DNA of 64,000 nucleotides from NCBI RefSeq assembly GCF_055900595.2, contig NZ_CM148325.1, one strand, 5' to 3'. Shown here in pieces: positions 11,205 through 46,238 of this stretch. A program made the position numbers and the translations under genes. Within the stretch, counting starts at the first letter, position 1. Each line of letters begins with the position of its first letter. The notes under the pieces are model-generated. The model was given only the letters and a program-made list of their open reading frames with translations. It had not been told where the DNA came from and made no database searches.

Positions 11205-11240
11205 GAAAAAAAAGCCCGCACTGTCAGGTGCGGGCTTTTT
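11205..11240 (-). terminator. thr operon attenuator (leader terminator hairpin plus U-run)
   Basis: AGCCCGCAC-CTGACA-GTGCGGGCT hairpin followed by T8 on the minus strand, between thrL and thrA. Confidence 0.85.
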
Positions 11241-11259
11241 TCTGTGTTTCCTGTACGCG

Positions 11260-11328
<69 letters not shown>

Positions 11329-22492: not shown

Positions 22493-24160
22493 GTGGCTCA
22501 ATTCGTTTATACCATGCATCGTGTCGGCAAAGTTGTTCCGCCGAAACGTCATATTTTGAAAAACATCTCTCTGAGTTTCTTCCCTGGGGCAAAAATTGGT
22601 GTCCTGGGTCTGAACGGCGCGGGTAAGTCTACCCTGCTGCGCATTATGGCGGGCATTGATAAAGACATCGAAGGTGAAGCGCGTCCGCAACCGGATATCA
22701 AGATTGGTTACCTGCCGCAGGAACCTCAGCTGAACCCGGAACACACCGTGCGTGAGTCCATTGAAGAAGCGGTTTCTGAAGTGGTTAACGCTCTGAAACG
22801 TCTGGATGAAGTGTATGCGCTGTATGCCGATCCGGATGCCGATTTTGACAAGCTGGCCGCTGAACAAGGCCGTCTGGAAGAGATCATTCAGGCTCATGAC
22901 GGTCATAACCTGAACGTTCAGCTGGAGCGTGCGGCTGATGCGCTGCGTCTGCCGGACTGGGACGCGAAAATCGCTAACCTTTCCGGTGGTGAGCGTCGTC
23001 GCGTGGCGTTGTGCCGCCTGCTGTTGGAAAAACCAGACATGCTGCTGCTCGACGAACCGACCAACCACCTGGATGCCGAATCCGTAGCGTGGCTGGAACG
23101 CTTCCTGCACGACTTCGAGGGCACCGTGGTGGCGATTACCCACGACCGTTACTTCCTCGATAACGTTGCAGGCTGGATCCTCGAACTTGACCGCGGTGAA
23201 GGTATTCCGTGGGAAGGTAACTACTCCTCCTGGCTGGAGCAGAAAGATCAGCGTCTGGCGCAGGAAGCTTCACAAGAAGCAGCGCGTCGTAAGTCGATCG
23301 AGAAAGAGCTGGAGTGGGTACGTCAGGGAACTAAAGGCCGTCAGTCGAAAGGTAAAGCACGTCTGGCGCGCTTTGAAGAGCTGAACAGCACCGAATATCA
23401 GAAACGTAACGAAACCAACGAACTGTTTATTCCACCTGGACCGCGTCTGGGCGATAAAGTGCTGGAAGTCAGCAACCTGCGTAAATCTTACGGCGATCGT
23501 CTGCTGATTGATGATCTGAGCTTCTCGATCCCTAAAGGGGCGATCGTCGGGATCATCGGTCCGAACGGCGCGGGTAAATCAACCCTGTTCCGTATGATCT
23601 CTGGTCAGGAACAGCCAGACAGCGGCACCATCACTTTAGGTGAAACGGTGAAACTGGCATCTGTCGATCAGTTCCGTGACTCAATGGATAACAGCAAAAC
23701 CGTTTGGGAAGAAGTTTCCGGCGGGCTGGATATCATGAAGATCGGTAACACCGAGATGCCAAGCCGCGCCTACGTTGGCCGCTTTAACTTTAAAGGGGTT
23801 GATCAGGGTAAACGCGTTGGCGAACTCTCCGGTGGTGAGCGTGGTCGTCTGCATCTGGCGAAGCTGCTGCAGGTTGGCGGCAACATGCTGCTGCTCGACG
23901 AACCGACCAACGACCTGGATATCGAAACCCTGCGTGCGCTGGAAAACGCCCTGCTGGAGTTCCCGGGCTGCGCGATGGTTATCTCGCACGACCGTTGGTT
24001 CCTCGACCGTATCGCCACACACATTCTGGATTACCAGGATGAAGGTAAAGTTGAGTTCTTTGAAGGTAACTTTACCGAGTACGAAGAGTACAAGAAACGC
24101 ACGCTGGGCGCAGACGCGCTGGAGCCGAAGCGTATCAAGTACAAGCGTATTGCGAAGTAA
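22493..24160 (+). CDS. ettA: energy-dependent translational throttle EttA (ABC-F ATPase, YjjK)
   Basis: 555-aa ORF with two ABC cassettes (GLNGAGKST…LSGGERRR…LLLDEPTNHLD; GPNGAGKST…LSGGERGR…LLLDEPTNDLD). Confidence 0.95.
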   Translation: MAQFVYTMHRVGKVVPPKRHILKNISLSFFPGAKIGVLGLNGAGKSTLLRIMAGIDKDIEGEARPQPDIKIGYLPQEPQLNPEHTVRESIEEAVSEVVNALKRLDEVYALYADPDADFDKLAAEQGRLEEIIQAHDGHNLNVQLERAADALRLPDWDAKIANLSGGERRRVALCRLLLEKPDMLLLDEPTNHLDAESVAWLERFLHDFEGTVVAITHDRYFLDNVAGWILELDRGEGIPWEGNYSSWLEQKDQRLAQEASQEAARRKSIEKELEWVRQGTKGRQSKGKARLARFEELNSTEYQKRNETNELFIPPGPRLGDKVLEVSNLRKSYGDRLLIDDLSFSIPKGAIVGIIGPNGAGKSTLFRMISGQEQPDSGTITLGETVKLASVDQFRDSMDNSKTVWEEVSGGLDIMKIGNTEMPSRAYVGRFNFKGVDQGKRVGELSGGERGRLHLAKLLQVGGNMLLLDEPTNDLDIETLRALENALLEFPGCAMVISHDRWFLDRIATHILDYQDEGKVEFFEGNFTEYEEYKKRTLGADALEPKRIKYKRIAK

Positions 24161-24171
24161 TGCGTAAAATG

Positions 24172-24201
24172 CCGGATGCGGCGCGCCAGCATCGCATCCG
24201 G
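24172..24201. terminator. REP-like hairpin between the convergent ettA and antitoxin stop codons
   Basis: CCGGATGCG-(12 nt)-CGCATCCGG inverted repeat. Confidence 0.5.
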
Positions 24202-24215
24202 TAATAGTTAAATGA

Positions 24216-24500
24216 TTAATGGGAGGCAAGTTCCCGGAAAAAGGCAGGATTTTCTTTAATTGTGGCAAGTACTTTTGCAGCCAATCCCGTAGGATTTCTT
24301 CGCTTCGATTCCCAGCTTTTAATGGTATCCACACTGGTTCCCAGAGCTTTTGCCATCTCACTTTGCGAAACGTTGAGTTGCTCACGAATAGCTTTAACAT
24401 CCGCAATTTCGTAGCGGGTCACCCGTGCAGGTTCTTTTAAACCTTGTTTAATCTCGACAGCCTCTTCCAGAGAGGTTTTCAACTCATCAAAAAAACTCAT
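24216..24500 (-). CDS. XRE-type helix-turn-helix antitoxin (HigA-like)
   Basis: 94 aa from ATG at 24500 (MSFFDELKTSLEEAVEIKQGLKEPARVTRYEIADVKAIREQLNVSQSEMAKALGTSVDTIKSWESKRRNPTGLAAKVLATIKENPAFFRELASH); SD GAGG 8 nt upstream; starts 1 nt after the toxin stop. Confidence 0.75.
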   Translation of the reverse strand: MSFFDELKTSLEEAVEIKQGLKEPARVTRYEIADVKAIREQLNVSQSEMAKALGTSVDTIKSWESKRRNPTGLAAKVLATIKENPAFFRELASH

Positions 24501-24501
24501 T

Positions 24502-24834
24502 TTATACCTCACCTTTGAGCAGTTTCGTCAACTTCTTTAGTTGAGCTTTTTCCGTATCTGTCAGACTGTCTTTGGCATTCTTCGGATAGGCCATAATCAA
24601 ATAAATAATCTCTTCCGTCGCCAGAAAGTAAATTATTCTGACACTACCACTTTTTCCCTGTGAACCCGCAGCCATTCGGACTTTACGCAATCCACCAGTC
24701 TGCTGAATGAGATCACCTTTATCGGGAGTTCCGATGAGTTCTTTTTGCAATTCCTTTAATTCATCATCGGTTGCAATCTGCTTGATCTGACGCGTAAACA
24801 TTGGCGTCTCTATAAATATTATCGCCTTGCCCAT
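24502..24834 (-). CDS. RelE/ParE-superfamily toxin, HigB-like (Gp49-type)
   Basis: 110 aa from ATG at 24834 (MGKAIIFIETPMFTRQIKQIATDDELKELQKELIGTPDKGDLIQQTGGLRKVRMAAGSQGKSGSVRIIYFLATEEIIYLIMAYPKNAKDSLTDTEKAQLKKLTKLLKGEV); conserved GGLRKxR…GKSGxxRxIY core; SD GGAGG upstream. Confidence 0.75.
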   Translation of the reverse strand: MGKAIIFIETPMFTRQIKQIATDDELKELQKELIGTPDKGDLIQQTGGLRKVRMAAGSQGKSGSVRIIYFLATEEIIYLIMAYPKNAKDSLTDTEKAQLKKLTKLLKGEV

Positions 24835-24850
24835 TACCCCTCCCTGGCAG

Positions 24851-24884
24851 GTACATTGTACACCAAAATGGAGTACTAAGTACA
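24851..24884 (-). promoter_or_regulatory. putative operator and promoter of the toxin-antitoxin operon (two GTAC-core inverted repeats)
   Basis: GTACA-T-TGTAC at 24851-24861 and GTACT-A-AGTAC at 24874-24884, in the 91 bp between nadR stop and toxin start. Confidence 0.45.
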
Positions 24885-24925
24885 CTTTTGAATCAGTAAT
24901 ATCACTCAACATCTTATAAAGATGA

Positions 24926-26158
24926 TTATCCCTGCTCCCCCATCATCTCCCGCACCAGCTCCACGCAGCGCAGGAAACGGCTGTCGTAATCGTCCTCTTC
25001 AACCCGCACAAATTCGATATTGTTCTTTTCCAGCATCTCCACCAGCAAGTTCTGGAACTCTTTGCGATCCACCGAACTGCCGAGACTGCGTAAACCATCC
25101 GCCACCCACGGCGTGTTGTTCTCCAGCAGAATCACCAGATCGAAACGGTATTCATCGATCAGCGCCTGTACGAACGGATGCTCGCGCCCTTCGTACTTTT
25201 TGCAGAACGCCTGAGTTGTCACAAAATCGGTGTCGATAAACGCCACTTTATTGGCATATTTTACTGCAAAATCAATATATTGAGCGTGTCCAAGTGCGAT
25301 TTTATCGTAGTCGGAATACTGCAATGCAATCTCATCGCCGCCAAGATGCGAAAAGACATAATCGCGACCATATTCCCATGCACTGGTAGTGTTGAAGATA
25401 TTGGCAAGTTTGTTTACCAGGGTGGATTTACCGCTCGATTCGCCGCCGAGGATCGCCACGGTGCGCACAAAGAACGGCTTCACTTCGGTAGGAATATATT
25501 CCCAGTAGCGGAACGGATTTTCGCGGATCTGCGCACCACTGATACTCATAAAAGTACGTTTCGGATCGACCAACACCGTTTCGATCCCCAGATGTTCCAT
25601 ATACTGCGGCGCGTCGGCTTCTTCCGAGGTGTAGATCAGATCCGGTTGGATCCCTTTTTCAGCCATAAACTTTTTGATGCCGTTGCTCCACACATCCCAG
25701 CCATGCGGATACGGCTCCATGCCCTCTTCGTTGAAGGCATGAATGCGAATATTTTTCTGATATTTAAAAGTTTGCAATAACCAGCGCAGACGATCCGGCA
25801 CCGTGGGCTGCTGCGACATGGCGCTATCTTCGAACAACGCGCGGTCGCGGGTATCGTCAAAGCCCATAATGATATGCAGTTCGTCAACCTGACTACAGGC
25901 ACGCTGGATAAGGTAGATATGTCCGGTATGCAGCGGGTAAAACTTACCGAATACAACACCAATAGTTTTCTTCTGCCGGGGAAATTCAAGTCCCAAATAA
26001 CGGTGCAACGCCTCCAGCTTTTGCGCGCTGGGGCTTTTAATTTTGGCATTCAGTAACTGGCTTAAATACCCTTTGGTCATACCGCTGGCATCAGCCACCT
26101 GCTGTAGCGTACAGCCCTGTTGCTTGATGGCAGTTTTCAGATAATCAAATGACGACAT
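24926..26158 (-). CDS. nadR: trifunctional NAD biosynthesis/regulator protein NadR
   Basis: ORF 24926..26179; NadR N-terminus MSSFDYLKTAIKQQGCTLQQVADASGMTKGYLSQLLN begins at an internal Met, giving 410 aa. Confidence 0.93.
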   Translation of the reverse strand: MSSFDYLKTAIKQQGCTLQQVADASGMTKGYLSQLLNAKIKSPSAQKLEALHRYLGLEFPRQKKTIGVVFGKFYPLHTGHIYLIQRACSQVDELHIIMGFDDTRDRALFEDSAMSQQPTVPDRLRWLLQTFKYQKNIRIHAFNEEGMEPYPHGWDVWSNGIKKFMAEKGIQPDLIYTSEEADAPQYMEHLGIETVLVDPKRTFMSISGAQIRENPFRYWEYIPTEVKPFFVRTVAILGGESSGKSTLVNKLANIFNTTSAWEYGRDYVFSHLGGDEIALQYSDYDKIALGHAQYIDFAVKYANKVAFIDTDFVTTQAFCKKYEGREHPFVQALIDEYRFDLVILLENNTPWVADGLRSLGSSVDRKEFQNLLVEMLEKNNIEFVRVEEDDYDSRFLRCVELVREMMGEQG

Positions 26159-26178
26159 ATCTCCCTCCGTATCTCTCA

Positions 26179-27561
26179 TTATAAGTCGTCGAACACGCTA
26201 AGCGCGTCGGAGAGTTTTTTAACGCCAAAAATCTGCATCCCTTCCGGCGCTTTTTTCGGCACGTTGGCTGCCGGAACAATCGCCCGCCGAAAACCATGTT
26301 TCGCCGCTTCAGAAATCCGCTCCTGGCCGCTGGGCACCGGGCGGATCTCCCCTGCCAGCCCGACTTCACCAAACACCACCAGATCCTGCGGTAGTGGTCT
26401 GTCGCGCAGGCTGGAAACCATCGCCAGCAGTAACGCTAAATCGGCACTGGTTTCGGTTACCTTCACGCCACCGACCACGTTAACAAACACATCCTGATCG
26501 GCCATTTGCAACCCACCGTGACGGTGAAGCACCGCCAGCAGGATTGCCAGACGGTTTTGCTCCAGCCCTACTGCCACGCGGCGTGGATTCGCCATCATCG
26601 AGTGATCGACCAGCGCCTGGATCTCCACCAGCAGCGGACGCGTTCCTTCCCACACCACCATCACTGAGCTGCCGGAGGTCACTTCATCGCCGCGACTTAA
26701 GAAAATTGCCGAAGGGTTACTGACTTCACGCAGTCCCTGTTCAGTCATCGCGAAGACGCCCAGCTCATTCACCGCGCCGAAACGGTTTTTATGGCTGCGT
26801 AAGGTGCGGAAACGGGAATCGGCATCGCCATCCAGAAGCACCGAACAGTCAATACAGTGTTCCAGCACTTTAGGGCCAGCCAGCGAACCATCTTTGGTTA
26901 CGTGCCCCACCATGACAATCGCCACACCGCGCGTTTTGGCGAAGCGCGTCAGATAAGCCGCCGTTTCACGCACCTGTGCCACGCTGCCAGGCGATGACTG
27001 AACATCCGCCATATGCATCACCTGGATGGAGTCAATGACCATCAGCTTCGGTTGCTCTTCTTCGGCAATCAGGCAGATCTGTTCGATGCTGGTTTCCGAC
27101 AACATATTGAGATTGTCAGTCGGCAGGCCGAGGCGATGAGCGCGCATTGCCACCTGTTGCAGCGACTCTTCGCCAGTGACATATAGCGTTTTCATCTGCT
27201 GCGCCAGTTTGCACAGCGTTTGCAGTAGCAGCGTGGATTTCCCCGCGCCTGGGTTACCGCCAATCAGAATAGCGCTTCCTGGCACTACGCCACCGCCTAA
27301 TACGCGGTCGAACTCTTTAAATCCGGTGGAAAAACGCGGCAACTCCTCAAGGCTGATATCGGAAAGTTTCTGGACTTTTGCCACCCCGGCGCTACCGGCA
27401 TAGCCACTGAGACGCTCGTTACGCGCCACCGTTGGCGACGCAGCAAGACGCACCTCGGTGATGGTGTTCCAGGCATGGCAGGCGCTGCACTGCCCCTGCC
27501 AGCGCGGATAATCGGCCCCGCATTCATTACAAACAAAGGCGCGTTTTGGAGCTTTTGCCAC
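26179..27561 (-). CDS. radA: DNA repair protein RadA (Sms)
   Basis: ORF 26179..27609; zinc finger CNECGADYPRWQGQCSACHAWN, Walker A GNPGAGKST, Lon-like C-terminus; likely GTG start at (M)AKAPKRAFV. Confidence 0.92.
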   Translation of the reverse strand: MAKAPKRAFVCNECGADYPRWQGQCSACHAWNTITEVRLAASPTVARNERLSGYAGSAGVAKVQKLSDISLEELPRFSTGFKEFDRVLGGGVVPGSAILIGGNPGAGKSTLLLQTLCKLAQQMKTLYVTGEESLQQVAMRAHRLGLPTDNLNMLSETSIEQICLIAEEEQPKLMVIDSIQVMHMADVQSSPGSVAQVRETAAYLTRFAKTRGVAIVMVGHVTKDGSLAGPKVLEHCIDCSVLLDGDADSRFRTLRSHKNRFGAVNELGVFAMTEQGLREVSNPSAIFLSRGDEVTSGSSVMVVWEGTRPLLVEIQALVDHSMMANPRRVAVGLEQNRLAILLAVLHRHGGLQMADQDVFVNVVGGVKVTETSADLALLLAMVSSLRDRPLPQDLVVFGEVGLAGEIRPVPSGQERISEAAKHGFRRAIVPAANVPKKAPEGMQIFGVKKLSDALSVFDDL

Positions 27562-37792: not shown

Positions 37793-38021
37793 CATGCCGG
37801 ATGCGGCCTACGGTTCGGCACAGGCCTGTAGGCCTGATAAGACGCGTCAGCGTCGCATCAGGCATTCTGCGCCAACTGCCGGATGCGGCGTGAACGCCTT
37901 ATCCGGCCTACGGTTCGGCACAGACTTGTAGGCATGATAAGACGCGTCAGCGTCGCATCAGGCATTGTGCGTCGACTGCCGGATGCGGTGTGAACGCCTT
38001 ATCCGGCTTACGAAGGGCAGA
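37793..38021. repeat. BIME/REP cluster (several REP units)
   Basis: Repeated GCCGGATGCGGCGTGAACGCCTTATCCGGCCTACG and TGATAAGACGCGTCAGCGTCGCATCAGGCA units. Confidence 0.9.
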
Positions 38022-45634: not shown

Positions 45635-45790
<156 letters not shown>

Positions 45791-45916: not shown

Positions 45917-46003
45917 GCGAAGGTGGCGGAATTGGTAGACGCGCTAGCTTCAGGTGTTAGTGTCCTTACGGACGTGGGGGTTCAAGTCCCCCCCCTCGCA
46001 CCA
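45917..46003 (+). tRNA. leuV: tRNA-Leu (anticodon CAG)
   Basis: GCGAAGGTGGCGGAATTGGTAGACGCGCTAGCTTCAGGTGTTAGTGTCCTTACGGACGTGGGGGTTCAAGTCCCCCCCCTCGCACCA; copy 1 of 3. Confidence 0.93.
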
Positions 46004-46031
46004 AAAACCACGTTGATATTGCTCGCACTGG

Positions 46032-46118
46032 GCGAAGGTGGCGGAATTGGTAGACGCGCTAGCTTCAGGTGTTAGTGTTCTTACGGACGTGGGGGTTCAA
46101 GTCCCCCCCCTCGCACCA
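46032..46118 (+). tRNA. leuP: tRNA-Leu (anticodon CAG), variable-arm variant (T at 46079)
   Basis: Identical to the flanking copies except C to T at tRNA position 48. Confidence 0.9.
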
Positions 46119-46151
46119 AACGAGGCGATATCAAAAAAGTAAGATGACTGT

Positions 46152-46238
46152 GCGAAGGTGGCGGAATTGGTAGACGCGCTAGCTTCAGGTGTTAGTGTCC
46201 TTACGGACGTGGGGGTTCAAGTCCCCCCCCTCGCACCA
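46152..46238 (+). tRNA. leuQ: tRNA-Leu (anticodon CAG)
   Basis: Third tandem copy, identical to copy 1. Confidence 0.93.

What the first reader, a model, noticed from the sequence alone, without database searches (positions are those of the whole stretch)
24216..24925. HigB/HigA-like toxin-antitoxin module inserted between ettA and nadR
About 700 bp between the convergent core genes ettA and nadR carry a tightly coupled two-gene operon on the minus strand. The upstream gene (24502-24834) encodes a 110-aa RelE/ParE-superfamily toxin with the HigB/Gp49-type core (GGLRKVR…GKSGSVRIIYF). The downstream gene (24216-24500) encodes a 94-aa XRE-type HTH antitoxin whose ATG lies 1 nt after the toxin stop. 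As I recall K-12, nadR and ettA are adjacent with no gene between them, so this looks like a strain-specific accessory insertion and is the best candidate for an unannotated selfish or defence-associated module in the window. It has no flanking integrase or IS.
Basis: partly seen in the sequence, partly recalled or inferred. Interest (0 to 1): 0.7.

Follow-up and report, generated by a model that had tools for sequence, protein, structure and literature searches.

The report
HigBA2-type toxin-antitoxin pair beside nadR
The two small genes between ettA and nadR are an ordinary, already annotated toxin-antitoxin pair of the HigB2/HigA2 ("RelE PF06296 / NadS") kind; it is not a recent insertion, because most E. 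coli, including K-12, carry a decayed remnant of the same pair at the same spot.

Summary
A 110-aa ORF (24834-24502, minus strand) is followed one base later by a 94-aa ORF (24500-24216).

- **Toxin:** it matches Pfam RelE PF06296. Its closest solved relative is Vibrio cholerae HigB2 (E 7.5e-17, fold TM 0.81-0.87). All four HigB2 catalytic residues are kept (R53, R66, Y83, K85).
- **Antitoxin:** it is a full-length NCBIfam NadS protein. It has a HigA2/MqsA-like C-terminal HTH. Its N-terminal segment models confidently as a helix plus strand only when fused to the toxin.
- **Operator:** a GTAC-N3-GTAC palindrome occurs twice in the promoter and nowhere else in the 64-kb window. It accompanies the pair in 47 of 49 loci from other species.
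- **Distribution:** the "strain-specific, unannotated insertion" reading fails. RefSeq annotates both genes, and 673 of 5426 complete E. coli genomes (UTI89 and 536 among them) carry the intact pair here. About 4079 genomes, including K-12 and O157:H7, share one deletion scar. It keeps the toxin's last ~29 nt and the first 38 nadS codons.
- **Relatives:** they sit mostly on small mobilizable plasmids.

This is a known kind of element with modest interest.

The parts
24502..24834 (-). Toxin gene, 110 aa. HigB2-type RelE-family (Pfam PF06296) ribosome-dependent mRNA endonuclease (function inferred).
   Evidence: ORF. Pfam RelE PF06296 E 5.9e-10. V. cholerae HigB2 in the PDB, E 7.5e-17 and 38% identity. 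Foldseek TM 0.81-0.87 to 5JAA/8A0X/5JA8. R53, R66, Y83 and K85 are invariant in 30 homologues and align with the HigB2 catalytic residues R51, R64, Y82 and K84.
24216..24500 (-). Antitoxin gene nadS, 94 aa. N-terminal toxin-binding segment (about residues 1-33) plus a C-terminal XRE/MqsA-like HTH (35-79 and a C-terminal helix).
   Evidence: NCBIfam NF041265 NadS, 182.6 bits against cutoff 60, full length. Pfam HTH_3 E 6.1e-10 and MqsA_antitoxin E 6e-4. HigA2 in the PDB E 2.2e-6 over residues 33-91. AF2 fused versus alone.
24873..24885 (-). Operator-like motif O1, GTGTAC-TTA-GTAC. It overlaps the inferred -35 region.
   Evidence: Read from the sequence. GTAC-N3-GTAC is found within 120 nt upstream of the toxin gene in 44 of 49 other-species loci, against 5 hits in about 330 kb of the rest of those loci. 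It occurs only twice in the 64-kb window.
24851..24863 (-). Operator-like motif O2, GTGTAC-AAT-GTAC, 22 bp downstream of O1. It contains the inferred -10 hexamer TACAAT (24860-24855).
   Evidence: The same two-site arrangement is seen in the Serratia and Enterobacter loci L005, L011, L016 and L019. Promoter assignment is inference; the consensus scan did not call it.
24837..24845 (-). Shine-Dalgarno sequence AGGGAGGGG for the toxin gene.
   Evidence: Read directly from the sequence.
24501..24510 (-). Coupling junction GAGGTATAAA: the Shine-Dalgarno GAGG for nadS lies inside the toxin's last codons, then the toxin stop TAA (24504-24502), then one spacer base before the nadS ATG.
   Evidence: Read directly from the sequence.
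24172..24201 (.). REP-type hairpin (CCGGATGCG ... CGCATCCGG) between the convergent 3' ends of ettA and nadS. Probably a bidirectional terminator or transcript stabiliser.
   Evidence: Inverted repeat I1. In K-12-type genomes this single REP is expanded to three copies that replace the 3' part of nadS.

Best explanation
This is a chromosomal type II toxin-antitoxin operon of the HigBA2 kind.

**Expression.** A promoter in the 91-nt gap after nadR drives a bicistronic transcript, toxin first and antitoxin second, with translational coupling.

**Toxin.** It is a RelE-fold endonuclease. By homology with V. cholerae HigB2, it binds the ribosomal A site and cuts translating mRNA, using R53, R66, Y83 and K85.

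**Antitoxin.** NadS neutralises the toxin with its N-terminal ~33 residues. These are disordered alone and fold into a helix plus a beta-strand on the toxin. The C-terminal HTH dimer binds two GTAC-N3-GTAC palindromes that overlap the -35 and -10 regions, so the operon represses itself.

**Outcome of losing NadS.** If NadS is lost or degraded faster than the toxin, translation stops.

**History.** The cassette most likely came from small mobilizable plasmids, where the family is common and acts as an addiction module. It entered the nadR-ettA gap early in E. coli history. It stays intact and under purifying selection in about 12% of complete genomes. One ancient double deletion, now in about 75% of genomes including K-12, destroyed it.

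**Shown versus inferred.** Shown here: gene structure, family membership, conserved catalytic residues, fold, conserved operator motif, population distribution and the deletion scar. Inferred: enzymatic activity, neutralisation, DNA binding, promoter position and the plasmid origin.
For: - **Family and fold:**
- **Catalytic residues:** they map onto the mutagenised HigB2 residues (PMC5416850) and are invariant in 30 homologues.
- **Gene order:** Pfam PF06296 is described as HigB2-type, ribosome-dependent and toxin-first (PMC11980606).
- **Antitoxin N-terminus:** in the fused toxin-linker-NadS AF2 model (pLDDT 84, pTM 0.76), NadS residues 3-18 form a helix and 26-32 a strand at pLDDT 92-97. NadS alone gives pLDDT 46-55 for residues 1-33 and no strand. 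This matches the HigA2 helix-plus-strand folding on binding (abstract).
- **Operator:** GTAC-N3-GTAC lies upstream of the toxin gene in 44 of 49 loci. In three of the five exceptions it sits just before nadS instead. V. cholerae HigA2 protects a GTAC-containing inverted repeat that spans the -35 to -10 region (PMC11006873). MqsA binds AACCT-N3-AGGTT, the same geometry (PMC4894380).
- **Pairing:** toxin and NadS are adjacent in 56 of 57 loci from other species; L060 lacked an antitoxin hit. None of these loci is next to nadR.
- **Plasmid habitat:** 164 plasmid records by DNA search, of which 134 are mobilizable, many of them 5-6 kb Col-type.
- **Experimental relatives:** Acinetobacter plasmid toxins are 51-56% identical. 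They probably correspond to the higBA system shown to be toxic in E. coli, rescued by its antitoxin, autorepressed and plasmid-stabilising (PMC5906591).
- **Selection:** 8 synonymous against 1 non-synonymous difference between the window and UTI89. Family-level dN/dS is about 0.06.
- **Distribution and scar:**
Against: - No experiment on this E. coli locus was found in the searchable literature. Toxicity, neutralisation and DNA binding all rest on homology.
- Identity to the solved V. cholerae proteins is only 38% (toxin) and 32% (HTH).
- Three of the four base-contacting HigA2 residues differ in NadS: D58, K61 and S62 replace R68, E71 and N72. The palindrome spacing also differs from the V. 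cholerae operator (N3 against GTAC-N9-GTAC). The DNA-binding mode therefore cannot simply be copied from HigA2.
- The consensus promoter scan did not call the proposed promoter; its -35 is weak (TGTACT).
Support comes from confidence and secondary structure only.
- The early acquisition is inferred without outgroup Escherichia genomes.
Confidence: 0.85

Rival explanations
1. The pair is an anti-phage abortive-infection or defence module: phage infection frees the toxin, which shuts down translation before the phage completes its cycle.
For: RelE/ParE-superfamily toxins are discussed as defence toxins (PMC11980606). Both proteins match phage protein families of unknown function, phrog_5869 (E 7.7e-29) and phrog_2104 (E 7.2e-22). 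A homologous toxin on ETEC H10407 plasmid p58 sits on the same 5.8-kb plasmid as an 'anti-phage dCTP deaminase'.
Against: PADLOC gave no specific match: only weak CARF and generic HTH hits with E > 1e-5. The locus lies between two core genes, not in a defence island. About 75% of E. coli have lost it through one old deletion, and the remnant shows no sign of selection. Only 7 phage records hold a relative, all below 60% identity.
Confidence: 0.1
2. The pair is a functionless selfish passenger. It is kept only by its own addiction effect and slowly decays, with no benefit to the host.
For: The family is typical of small mobilizable plasmids. Most E. coli have lost it. Some lineages have no trace at all. 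This reading fits the best explanation, which leaves host benefit open.
Against: Within the carriers both genes look intact. The 60 evenly sampled genomes are all annotated with the toxin apart from one garbled assembly, and changes between the window and UTI89 are almost all synonymous. That suggests ongoing constraint, although addiction alone could produce it.
Confidence: 0.45
3. NadS is a regulator of NAD metabolism that works with NadR, as the gene name suggests, and the upstream ORF is an accessory rather than a toxin.
For: Only the name and the position directly downstream of nadR on the same strand, with no predicted terminator between them.
Against: In 57 loci from other species the NadS homologue follows the toxin gene in all but one (L060, no antitoxin hit), and none lies near nadR. 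Homologues are common on 5-6 kb plasmids that carry no NAD genes. The conserved DNA motif sits at the pair's own promoter and occurs nowhere else in the window, not even at nadR. K-12 keeps only a truncated nadS without the HTH.
Confidence: 0.02
4. The module is inactive in this strain: an intact-looking but dead toxin, so effectively a pseudogene pair.
For: Chromosomal TA toxins often carry attenuating substitutions. No activity data exist for this locus.
Against: All four catalytic-equivalent residues and the other family-invariant positions are present. Both ORFs are full length with good ribosome-binding sites. The within-species synonymous to non-synonymous ratio is 8:1.
Confidence: 0.08

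Closest known systems
Vibrio cholerae HigB2/HigA2 (VCA0468-0469; PDB 5JA8, 5JAA, 5J9I, 8A0X)
   Same: - Toxin-first operon with a ~110-aa RelE-fold toxin.
- Same four active-site residues (R, R, Y, K).
- Antitoxin of about 100 aa with an N-terminal toxin-binding segment (helix plus strand) and a C-terminal XRE HTH dimerisation and DNA-binding domain.
- Operator contains GTAC and overlaps the core promoter.
   Different: - Only 38% (toxin) and 32% (HTH) identity.
- NadS is 10 residues shorter at the N-terminus.
- Three of four base-contacting residues differ.
- The operator is two copies of GTAC-N3-GTAC, not one TGTACGC-N5-GCGTACA.
- The V. cholerae pair lies in the superintegron (from my own knowledge of V. 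cholerae, not checked here), whereas this pair lies between two core genes.
Acinetobacter baumannii plasmid higBA (HigBA1/HigBA2 of pAB120-type plasmids; Armalyte et al. 2018, PMC5906591)
   Same: Acinetobacter plasmid toxins are 51-56% identical to this one and are followed by a gene that RefSeq also calls nadS. The system is experimentally toxic in E. coli, neutralised by its antitoxin, autorepressed and plasmid-stabilising.
   Different: - It is plasmid-borne.
- Its upstream palindrome is GTACG-N7-CGTAC, with V. cholerae-like spacing.
- That the plasmid carries exactly the published system is my inference from plasmid size and host, not a sequence check.
Toxin/NadS cassettes on small Col-type mobilizable plasmids of Enterobacterales (for example ETEC H10407 p58, Citrobacter pRHBSTW-00053_5, Yersinia ruckeri 5.2-kb plasmids)
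   Same: About 71-73% nucleotide and about 79% toxin amino-acid identity. Same gene order and one-base or short gap. Same GTAC-N3-GTAC motif upstream.
   Different: They carry one operator copy rather than two. They sit on plasmids next to rep and mob genes. None has been experimentally studied as far as I could find.
E. coli MqsR/MqsA
   Same: The NadS HTH domain resembles the MqsA C-terminal domain: Pfam MqsA_antitoxin E 6e-4, TIGR03830 E 1.2e-9, Foldseek 3FMY TM 0.78. The palindrome geometry (5-N3-5) is the same as AACCT-N3-AGGTT. The gene order is also toxin first.
   Different: NadS lacks the N-terminal zinc-binding domain and has no cysteine. It scores below the TIGR03830 cutoff (38 against 61.8). 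The toxin is not MqsR.

Membership tests
HigB2-type RelE toxins (Pfam PF06296) | Significant match to the family profile | tested here: met
   PF06296 E 5.9e-10, 39.8 bits, residues 13-106. Homologues in the large protein database carry the same precomputed Pfam label.
HigB2-type RelE toxins (Pfam PF06296) | RelE/BECR fold superposable on solved HigB2 | tested here: met
   AF2 model with toxin-domain pLDDT mostly 85-96. Foldseek to 5JAA_C/D, 8A0X_C and 5JA8 gives TM 0.81-0.87 and rmsd 1.6-3.0 A.
HigB2-type RelE toxins (Pfam PF06296) | Active-site residues equivalent to VcHigB2 R51, R64, Y82 and K84 | tested here: met
   R53, R66, Y83 and K85 by the HMMER alignment and the paper's numbering. 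They are invariant in 30 homologues.
HigB2-type RelE toxins (Pfam PF06296) | Toxin gene upstream of the antitoxin gene | tested here: met
   for the window. The same order holds in 56 of 57 loci from other species.
HigB2-type RelE toxins (Pfam PF06296) | Ribosome-dependent mRNA cleavage and growth arrest relieved by the antitoxin | not testable with these tools
   Needs expression and in vitro translation assays.
NadS / HigA2-type antitoxins | Score above the curated cutoff of NCBIfam NF041265 | tested here: met
   182.6 bits against cutoff 60, aligned 1-94 of 94.
NadS / HigA2-type antitoxins | C-terminal XRE HTH domain like the HigA2 C-terminal domain | tested here: met
   HTH_3 E 6.1e-10. 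HigA2 E 2.2e-6. Foldseek 5J9I TM 0.77-0.85, rmsd 1.0-1.5 A.
NadS / HigA2-type antitoxins | N-terminal segment disordered alone that folds into a helix plus strand on the toxin | tested here: inconclusive
   The prediction is supportive. Fused model: helix at residues 3-18 and strand at 26-32, pLDDT 92-97. Alone: pLDDT 46-55 and no strand. Contacts could not be measured, and no sequence similarity to the HigA2 N-terminus was detected.
NadS / HigA2-type antitoxins | Palindromic operator overlapping the operon's own promoter | tested here: met
   Two GTAC-N3-GTAC sites at 24851-24885. The motif accompanies the pair in 47 of 49 loci. Actual binding was not testable.
Classic HigB/HigA (Rts1 HigB-like PF05015; K-12 HigB/YgjN PF09907) | Match to those toxin profiles | tested here: not met
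   The Pfam scan lists only PF06296, a marginal Gp49 PF05973 (E 0.0013) and one noise hit. Neither PF05015 nor PF09907 appears.
MqsA antitoxins (TIGR03830) | N-terminal CxxC zinc domain and a score above cutoff | tested here: not met
   38 bits against cutoff 61.8, and only the C-terminal part of the profile aligns. NadS has no cysteine (sequence).
Catalogued anti-phage defence systems (PADLOC-DB 2.0) | Match to a defence-system protein model | tested here: not met
   Only weak CARF hits (E 0.0025-0.0047) and generic HTH hits.

The most novel reading that the evidence does not exclude
The 55-aa nadS remnant of K-12 and O157-type strains keeps exactly the toxin-neutralising N-terminal segment (NadS residues 1-38) and has lost the HTH. 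It is reported as translated in K-12 BW25113. It may act as a stand-alone anti-addiction peptide that blunts HigB2-family toxins brought in by small Col-type plasmids, which would make those strains easier hosts for, or easier to cure of, such plasmids.
Probability: 0.06. Interest if true: 0.55.

Novelty: new member of a known kind. Interest (0 to 1): 0.22.

Why it matters
The practical value is mostly in annotation.

- **A function for NadS.** It ties the uninformative RefSeq name "NadS family protein" to a concrete role: a HigA2-like antitoxin and autorepressor. It also offers a candidate operator, GTAC-N3-GTAC.
- **The K-12 nadS gene explained.** The recently noticed K-12 "nadS" small gene is the stump of an antitoxin left by an old deletion, not a NAD-related gene.
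- **An experimental pair.** For TA biology, E. coli offers a natural intact/decayed allele pair at one core locus: UTI89 and 536 against K-12. That is convenient for testing whether a chromosomal HigBA2-type module does anything for its host.

None of this changes current understanding of TA systems.

Tried and rejected
- **Recent strain-specific insertion:** rejected because K-12 retains pieces of both genes.
- **NadS as a NadR partner:** rejected on context in 57 loci from other species and on plasmids.
- **A 'divergent allele' in strain HS-02 (82% identity):** the alignment shows perfect flanks and a poly-A-garbled interior, which is an assembly artefact.
- **Counting empty sites with an ECO21 junction probe:** this did not separate states cleanly, because REP copies let K-12-type loci match in two pieces. 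I use only the rough figure of about 455 genomes at >=99% identity.
- **Consensus promoter and terminator scan:** it found nothing useful at the real promoter, and the repeat finder missed the GTAC palindromes because the exact seeds are only 4 nt. I found them by eye and then counted them by script.
- **Literature searches for this E. coli locus:** queries on nadS, nadR plus toxin-antitoxin plus UTI89, and higBA in UPEC gave only the PIRT-seq mention of nadS. The higBA in Norton & Mulvey 2012 could not be tied to this locus: the paper does not mention nadR, and the text seen does not identify which higBA was deleted.
- **Model coordinates:** they were not exposed, so interface contacts could not be computed.
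- **Outgroup Escherichia species:** these could not be examined beyond the single genome-contig scan, which returned no Escherichia, Salmonella or Citrobacter chromosomal locus.
Full report
**1. What is in the sequence**

ettA is on the plus strand and ends at 24160. nadR is on the minus strand, with its stop codon at 24926-24928. Two minus-strand ORFs lie between them.

The first runs from ATG 24834 to the stop at 24504-24502 and encodes 110 aa. The second runs from ATG 24500 to the stop at 24218-24216 and encodes 94 aa. One base (24501) separates them, and the Shine-Dalgarno sequence of the second ORF (GAGG, 24510-24507) lies inside the last codons of the first. This is the usual layout for translational coupling.

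A strong Shine-Dalgarno sequence (AGGGAGGGG, 24837-24845) precedes the first ATG. The ORF list also offers a 136-aa version starting at 24912. The 110-aa start is better supported. Homologues begin at the equivalent position. The conserved promoter elements lie inside the longer reading. RefSeq uses the 110-aa start.

A REP-type hairpin (24172-24201) sits between the 3' ends of ettA and the second gene. No integrase or IS is present.

**2. What the proteins are**

*Toxin.* The 110-aa protein matches Pfam RelE PF06296 (E 5.9e-10). Its Gp49 match is only marginal (E 0.0013).
- Its best solved relatives are all V. cholerae HigB2 chains (E 7.5e-17, 38% identity over 98 columns).
- Hadzi et al. 2017 showed that HigB2 is a ribosome-dependent mRNase. 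Alanine substitutions of R51, R64, Y82 and K84 cut its activity 170- to 3000-fold (PMC5416850).
- In the HMMER alignment those positions are R53, R66, Y83 and K85 here. All four are invariant across 30 toxin-antitoxin pairs from different species.
- Gerdes (2025) lists PF06296 as the 'HigB2' family: ribosome-dependent and toxin first (PMC11980606).

*Antitoxin.* The 94-aa protein is a full-length member of NCBIfam NF041265 'NadS' (182.6 bits, cutoff 60).
- It has an XRE HTH at residues 35-79 and a weaker MqsA-C-terminal-domain signal.
- Its best solved relative is V. cholerae HigA2 (E 2.2e-6, residues 33-91).

**3. Structure predictions**

I fused each toxin to its own downstream antitoxin with a 30-residue Gly/Ser linker. 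The sequences came from the window and 29 other species, paired by genomic adjacency, and the alignment was modelled. Mean pLDDT is 84 and pTM is 0.76, although the linker itself is disordered.
- The toxin part superposes on HigB2 (TM 0.81-0.87). The lowest rmsd (1.6-2.1 A) is to the antitoxin-bound form 5JAA.
- The HTH part superposes on the HigA2 C-terminal domain (TM 0.77-0.85) and on the MqsA C-terminal domain (TM 0.78).
- In the fused model, NadS residues 3-18 form a helix and 26-32 a beta-strand at pLDDT 92-97.
- When NadS is modelled alone from its own alignment, residues 1-33 drop to pLDDT 46-55 and the strand is gone.

This is the behaviour described for HigA2, whose disordered N-terminus folds into a helix followed by a strand on HigB2. 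The support is indirect.

**4. A conserved operator**

The motif GTAC-N3-GTAC occurs twice in the 91-nt gap after nadR: GTGTACTTAGTAC at 24885-24873 and GTGTACAATGTAC at 24863-24851. The two copies are 22 bp apart. The downstream copy contains a good -10 hexamer (TACAAT), and a weak -35 (TGTACT, 18-nt spacer) lies in the upstream copy.

These are the only two occurrences of the motif in the 64-kb window.
- Of the 57 related loci found in other species, 49 had a usable upstream region.
- In 44 of those 49, at least one copy lies within 120 nt upstream of the toxin gene. Only 5 copies occur in about 330 kb of the remaining locus sequence.
- In three of the five exceptions (L018, L020, L051) the motif sits between the toxin and antitoxin genes, about 30 nt before the antitoxin start. 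The motif therefore travels with NadS.
- In single-site loci it lies between recognisable -35 and -10 hexamers, for example TTGACA...TAAGAT in L046.

For comparison, V. cholerae HigA2 protects TGTACGC-N5-GCGTACA across the -35 to -10 region (PMC11006873). An Acinetobacter relative has GTACG-N7-CGTAC. The GTAC core is shared, but the spacing in the NadS clade is shorter. It matches the geometry of the MqsA site AACCT-N3-AGGTT (PMC4894380), which fits the MqsA-like HTH domain.

Three of the four base-contacting HigA2 residues differ in NadS (R68, E71 and N72 become D58, K61 and S62). R77 is kept as R67. I derived this from the alignment and the residue list. Autorepression through these sites is my inference; binding has not been tested.

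**5. Distribution in E. coli**

Among 5426 complete genomes, 673 carry the toxin gene. It is always present once and always on the chromosome. The carriers include UTI89, 536 and NCTC9022. RefSeq annotates 'type II toxin-antitoxin system RelE/ParE family toxin' and 'nadS: NadS family protein' at this position.

K-12 MG1655 is not empty here. It has a nadS pseudogene. The alignment shows what K-12 keeps and what it lacks:
- It keeps the last ~29 nt of the toxin gene (window 24530-24502) and the first 114 nt of nadS.
- It lacks window 24531-24925, which holds the promoter, both operators and toxin codons 1-101.
- From nadS codon 39 onward the sequence is replaced by extra REP copies.

A 211-nt probe across the K-12 scar is covered at 80% or more in 4079 genomes. 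Eight sampled remnants, including K-12, O157:H7 and ETEC, share both junctions exactly, which argues for a single event.

The remnant is decaying:
- In three of the eight, the ATG is ATA and there is a 1-nt deletion. In one it is TTG.
- The K-12 version differs from the intact allele at 9 of 143 retained positions, with 5 amino-acid changes in 38 codons.

A third state, as in strain ECO21, has REP copies only and no remnant. Roughly 455 genomes are at least 99% identical to its junction probe, but that count is not clean.

Between the window and UTI89 the module differs by 0.7% (nadS) and 2.1% (toxin). That comprises 8 synonymous changes and 1 non-synonymous change. The flanking genes differ by 2.9% (ettA) and 5.8% (nadR). 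The intact allele is therefore old within E. coli and under purifying selection. The K-12/window difference is a deletion in the K-12-type lineage.

**6. Where the family lives**

- In 56 of them a NadS homologue follows the toxin directly; L060 lacked an antitoxin hit.
- None is within 4 kb of nadR or ettA. The position beside nadR, and hence the name, is an E. coli peculiarity.
- No Escherichia, Salmonella or Citrobacter chromosomal locus was returned.

In PLSDB, 164 plasmids match at the DNA level (about 71-73% identity). Of these, 134 are mobilizable, many are 5-6 kb, and 43 come from Escherichia and 40 from Klebsiella. One example is a Col(Ye4449)/MOBP plasmid that carries little besides rep, mob and this pair. 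Another is ETEC H10407 p58.

At the protein level 415 plasmids match, 258 of them from Acinetobacter at 51-56% identity. Those are very probably the higBA system of Armalyte et al. 2018. That system is toxic in E. coli, rescued by its antitoxin, autorepressed with the toxin as corepressor, and able to stabilise plasmids (PMC5906591). I did not check sequence identity to the published plasmid.

Phage relatives are few and distant, although both proteins match PHROG families of unknown function. PADLOC has no model for either protein.

**7. Interpretation**

The best-supported reading is an active HigBA2-type type II TA operon. It was probably captured long ago from a small plasmid, is kept in a minority of E. 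coli lineages, and was destroyed in most by one deletion. What it does for the host, if anything, is open. A purely selfish persistence is at least as likely as a defence or stress role.

The idea that NadS regulates NAD metabolism has no support beyond the name.

The most novel possibility I cannot exclude concerns the K-12/O157 55-aa remnant. It is NadS 1-38 plus 17 REP-encoded residues, and it is reported as translated in BW25113 (PMC12350097). It might still neutralise related plasmid toxins. The loss of its start codon in many lineages argues against a conserved function.

**8. Verdict**

- The family assignment is essentially right but should read HigB2/HigA2 (PF06296/NadS).
- The claims of strain-specific insertion, an empty K-12 site and missing annotation are wrong.
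- This is a new, uncharacterised member of a well-known kind, and interest is low to modest.

Noticed in passing
L001:1722-1835 (K-12 MG1655), L066:379-546 (O157:H7 MB9-1): The K-12 and O157 'nadS' is a 55-aa ORF made of NadS residues 1-38 (the predicted toxin-binding segment, with 5 substitutions) fused to 17 residues encoded by a REP element. PGAP calls it a pseudogene in K-12 but a real protein (WP_000007440.1) in O157:H7. A PIRT-seq paper reports that it is translated in BW25113.
   Followed up: partly
L018:3964-4057, L020:4295-4389, L051:4295-4387: In three Enterobacter-group loci the toxin and nadS genes are about 95 nt apart rather than overlapping. The GTAC-TAT-GTAC motif sits in that gap rather than upstream of the toxin. 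This suggests a variant architecture in which the antitoxin has its own regulated promoter.
   Followed up: partly
L063:2300-2540 (E. coli HS-02, NZ_CP172818.1): An apparent divergent, frameshifted allele of the module is really a stretch of A-rich assembly noise between perfectly matching flanks. PGAP nevertheless annotated a 'hypothetical protein' and a frameshifted nadS there.
   Followed up: yes
L073:1-419 (ETEC H10407 plasmid p58, NC_017723.1): The 5.8-kb mobilizable plasmid that carries a 79%-identical toxin also carries a gene annotated 'anti-phage dCTP deaminase'. So a TA cassette and a defence gene share one tiny plasmid.
   Followed up: no
window 24926-26179 (nadR) versus 22493-24160 (ettA): nadR in this window differs by 5.4-5.8% from both the K-12 and UTI89 genes, while the adjacent ettA differs by only 2.9-3.3%. 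This may be a sign of recombination or an unusually divergent nadR allele next to the module.
   Followed up: no
L065 (E. coli WR14-2, NZ_AP041137.1 4458586-4459751): In this genome the ettA side of the locus is replaced by a YdgH/BhsA/McbA-family gene and a truncated alkene reductase. This indicates a rearrangement or insertion at the same intergenic site.
   Followed up: no
window 37831-38008 and 45695-45777; 45917-46238; 11205-11324: Rfam finds three naRNA4 (REP/BIME-derived) matches, three tandem tRNA-Leu(CAG) genes and the thr operon leader. The window therefore spans the region around the conventional start coordinate of the K-12 map.
   Followed up: no
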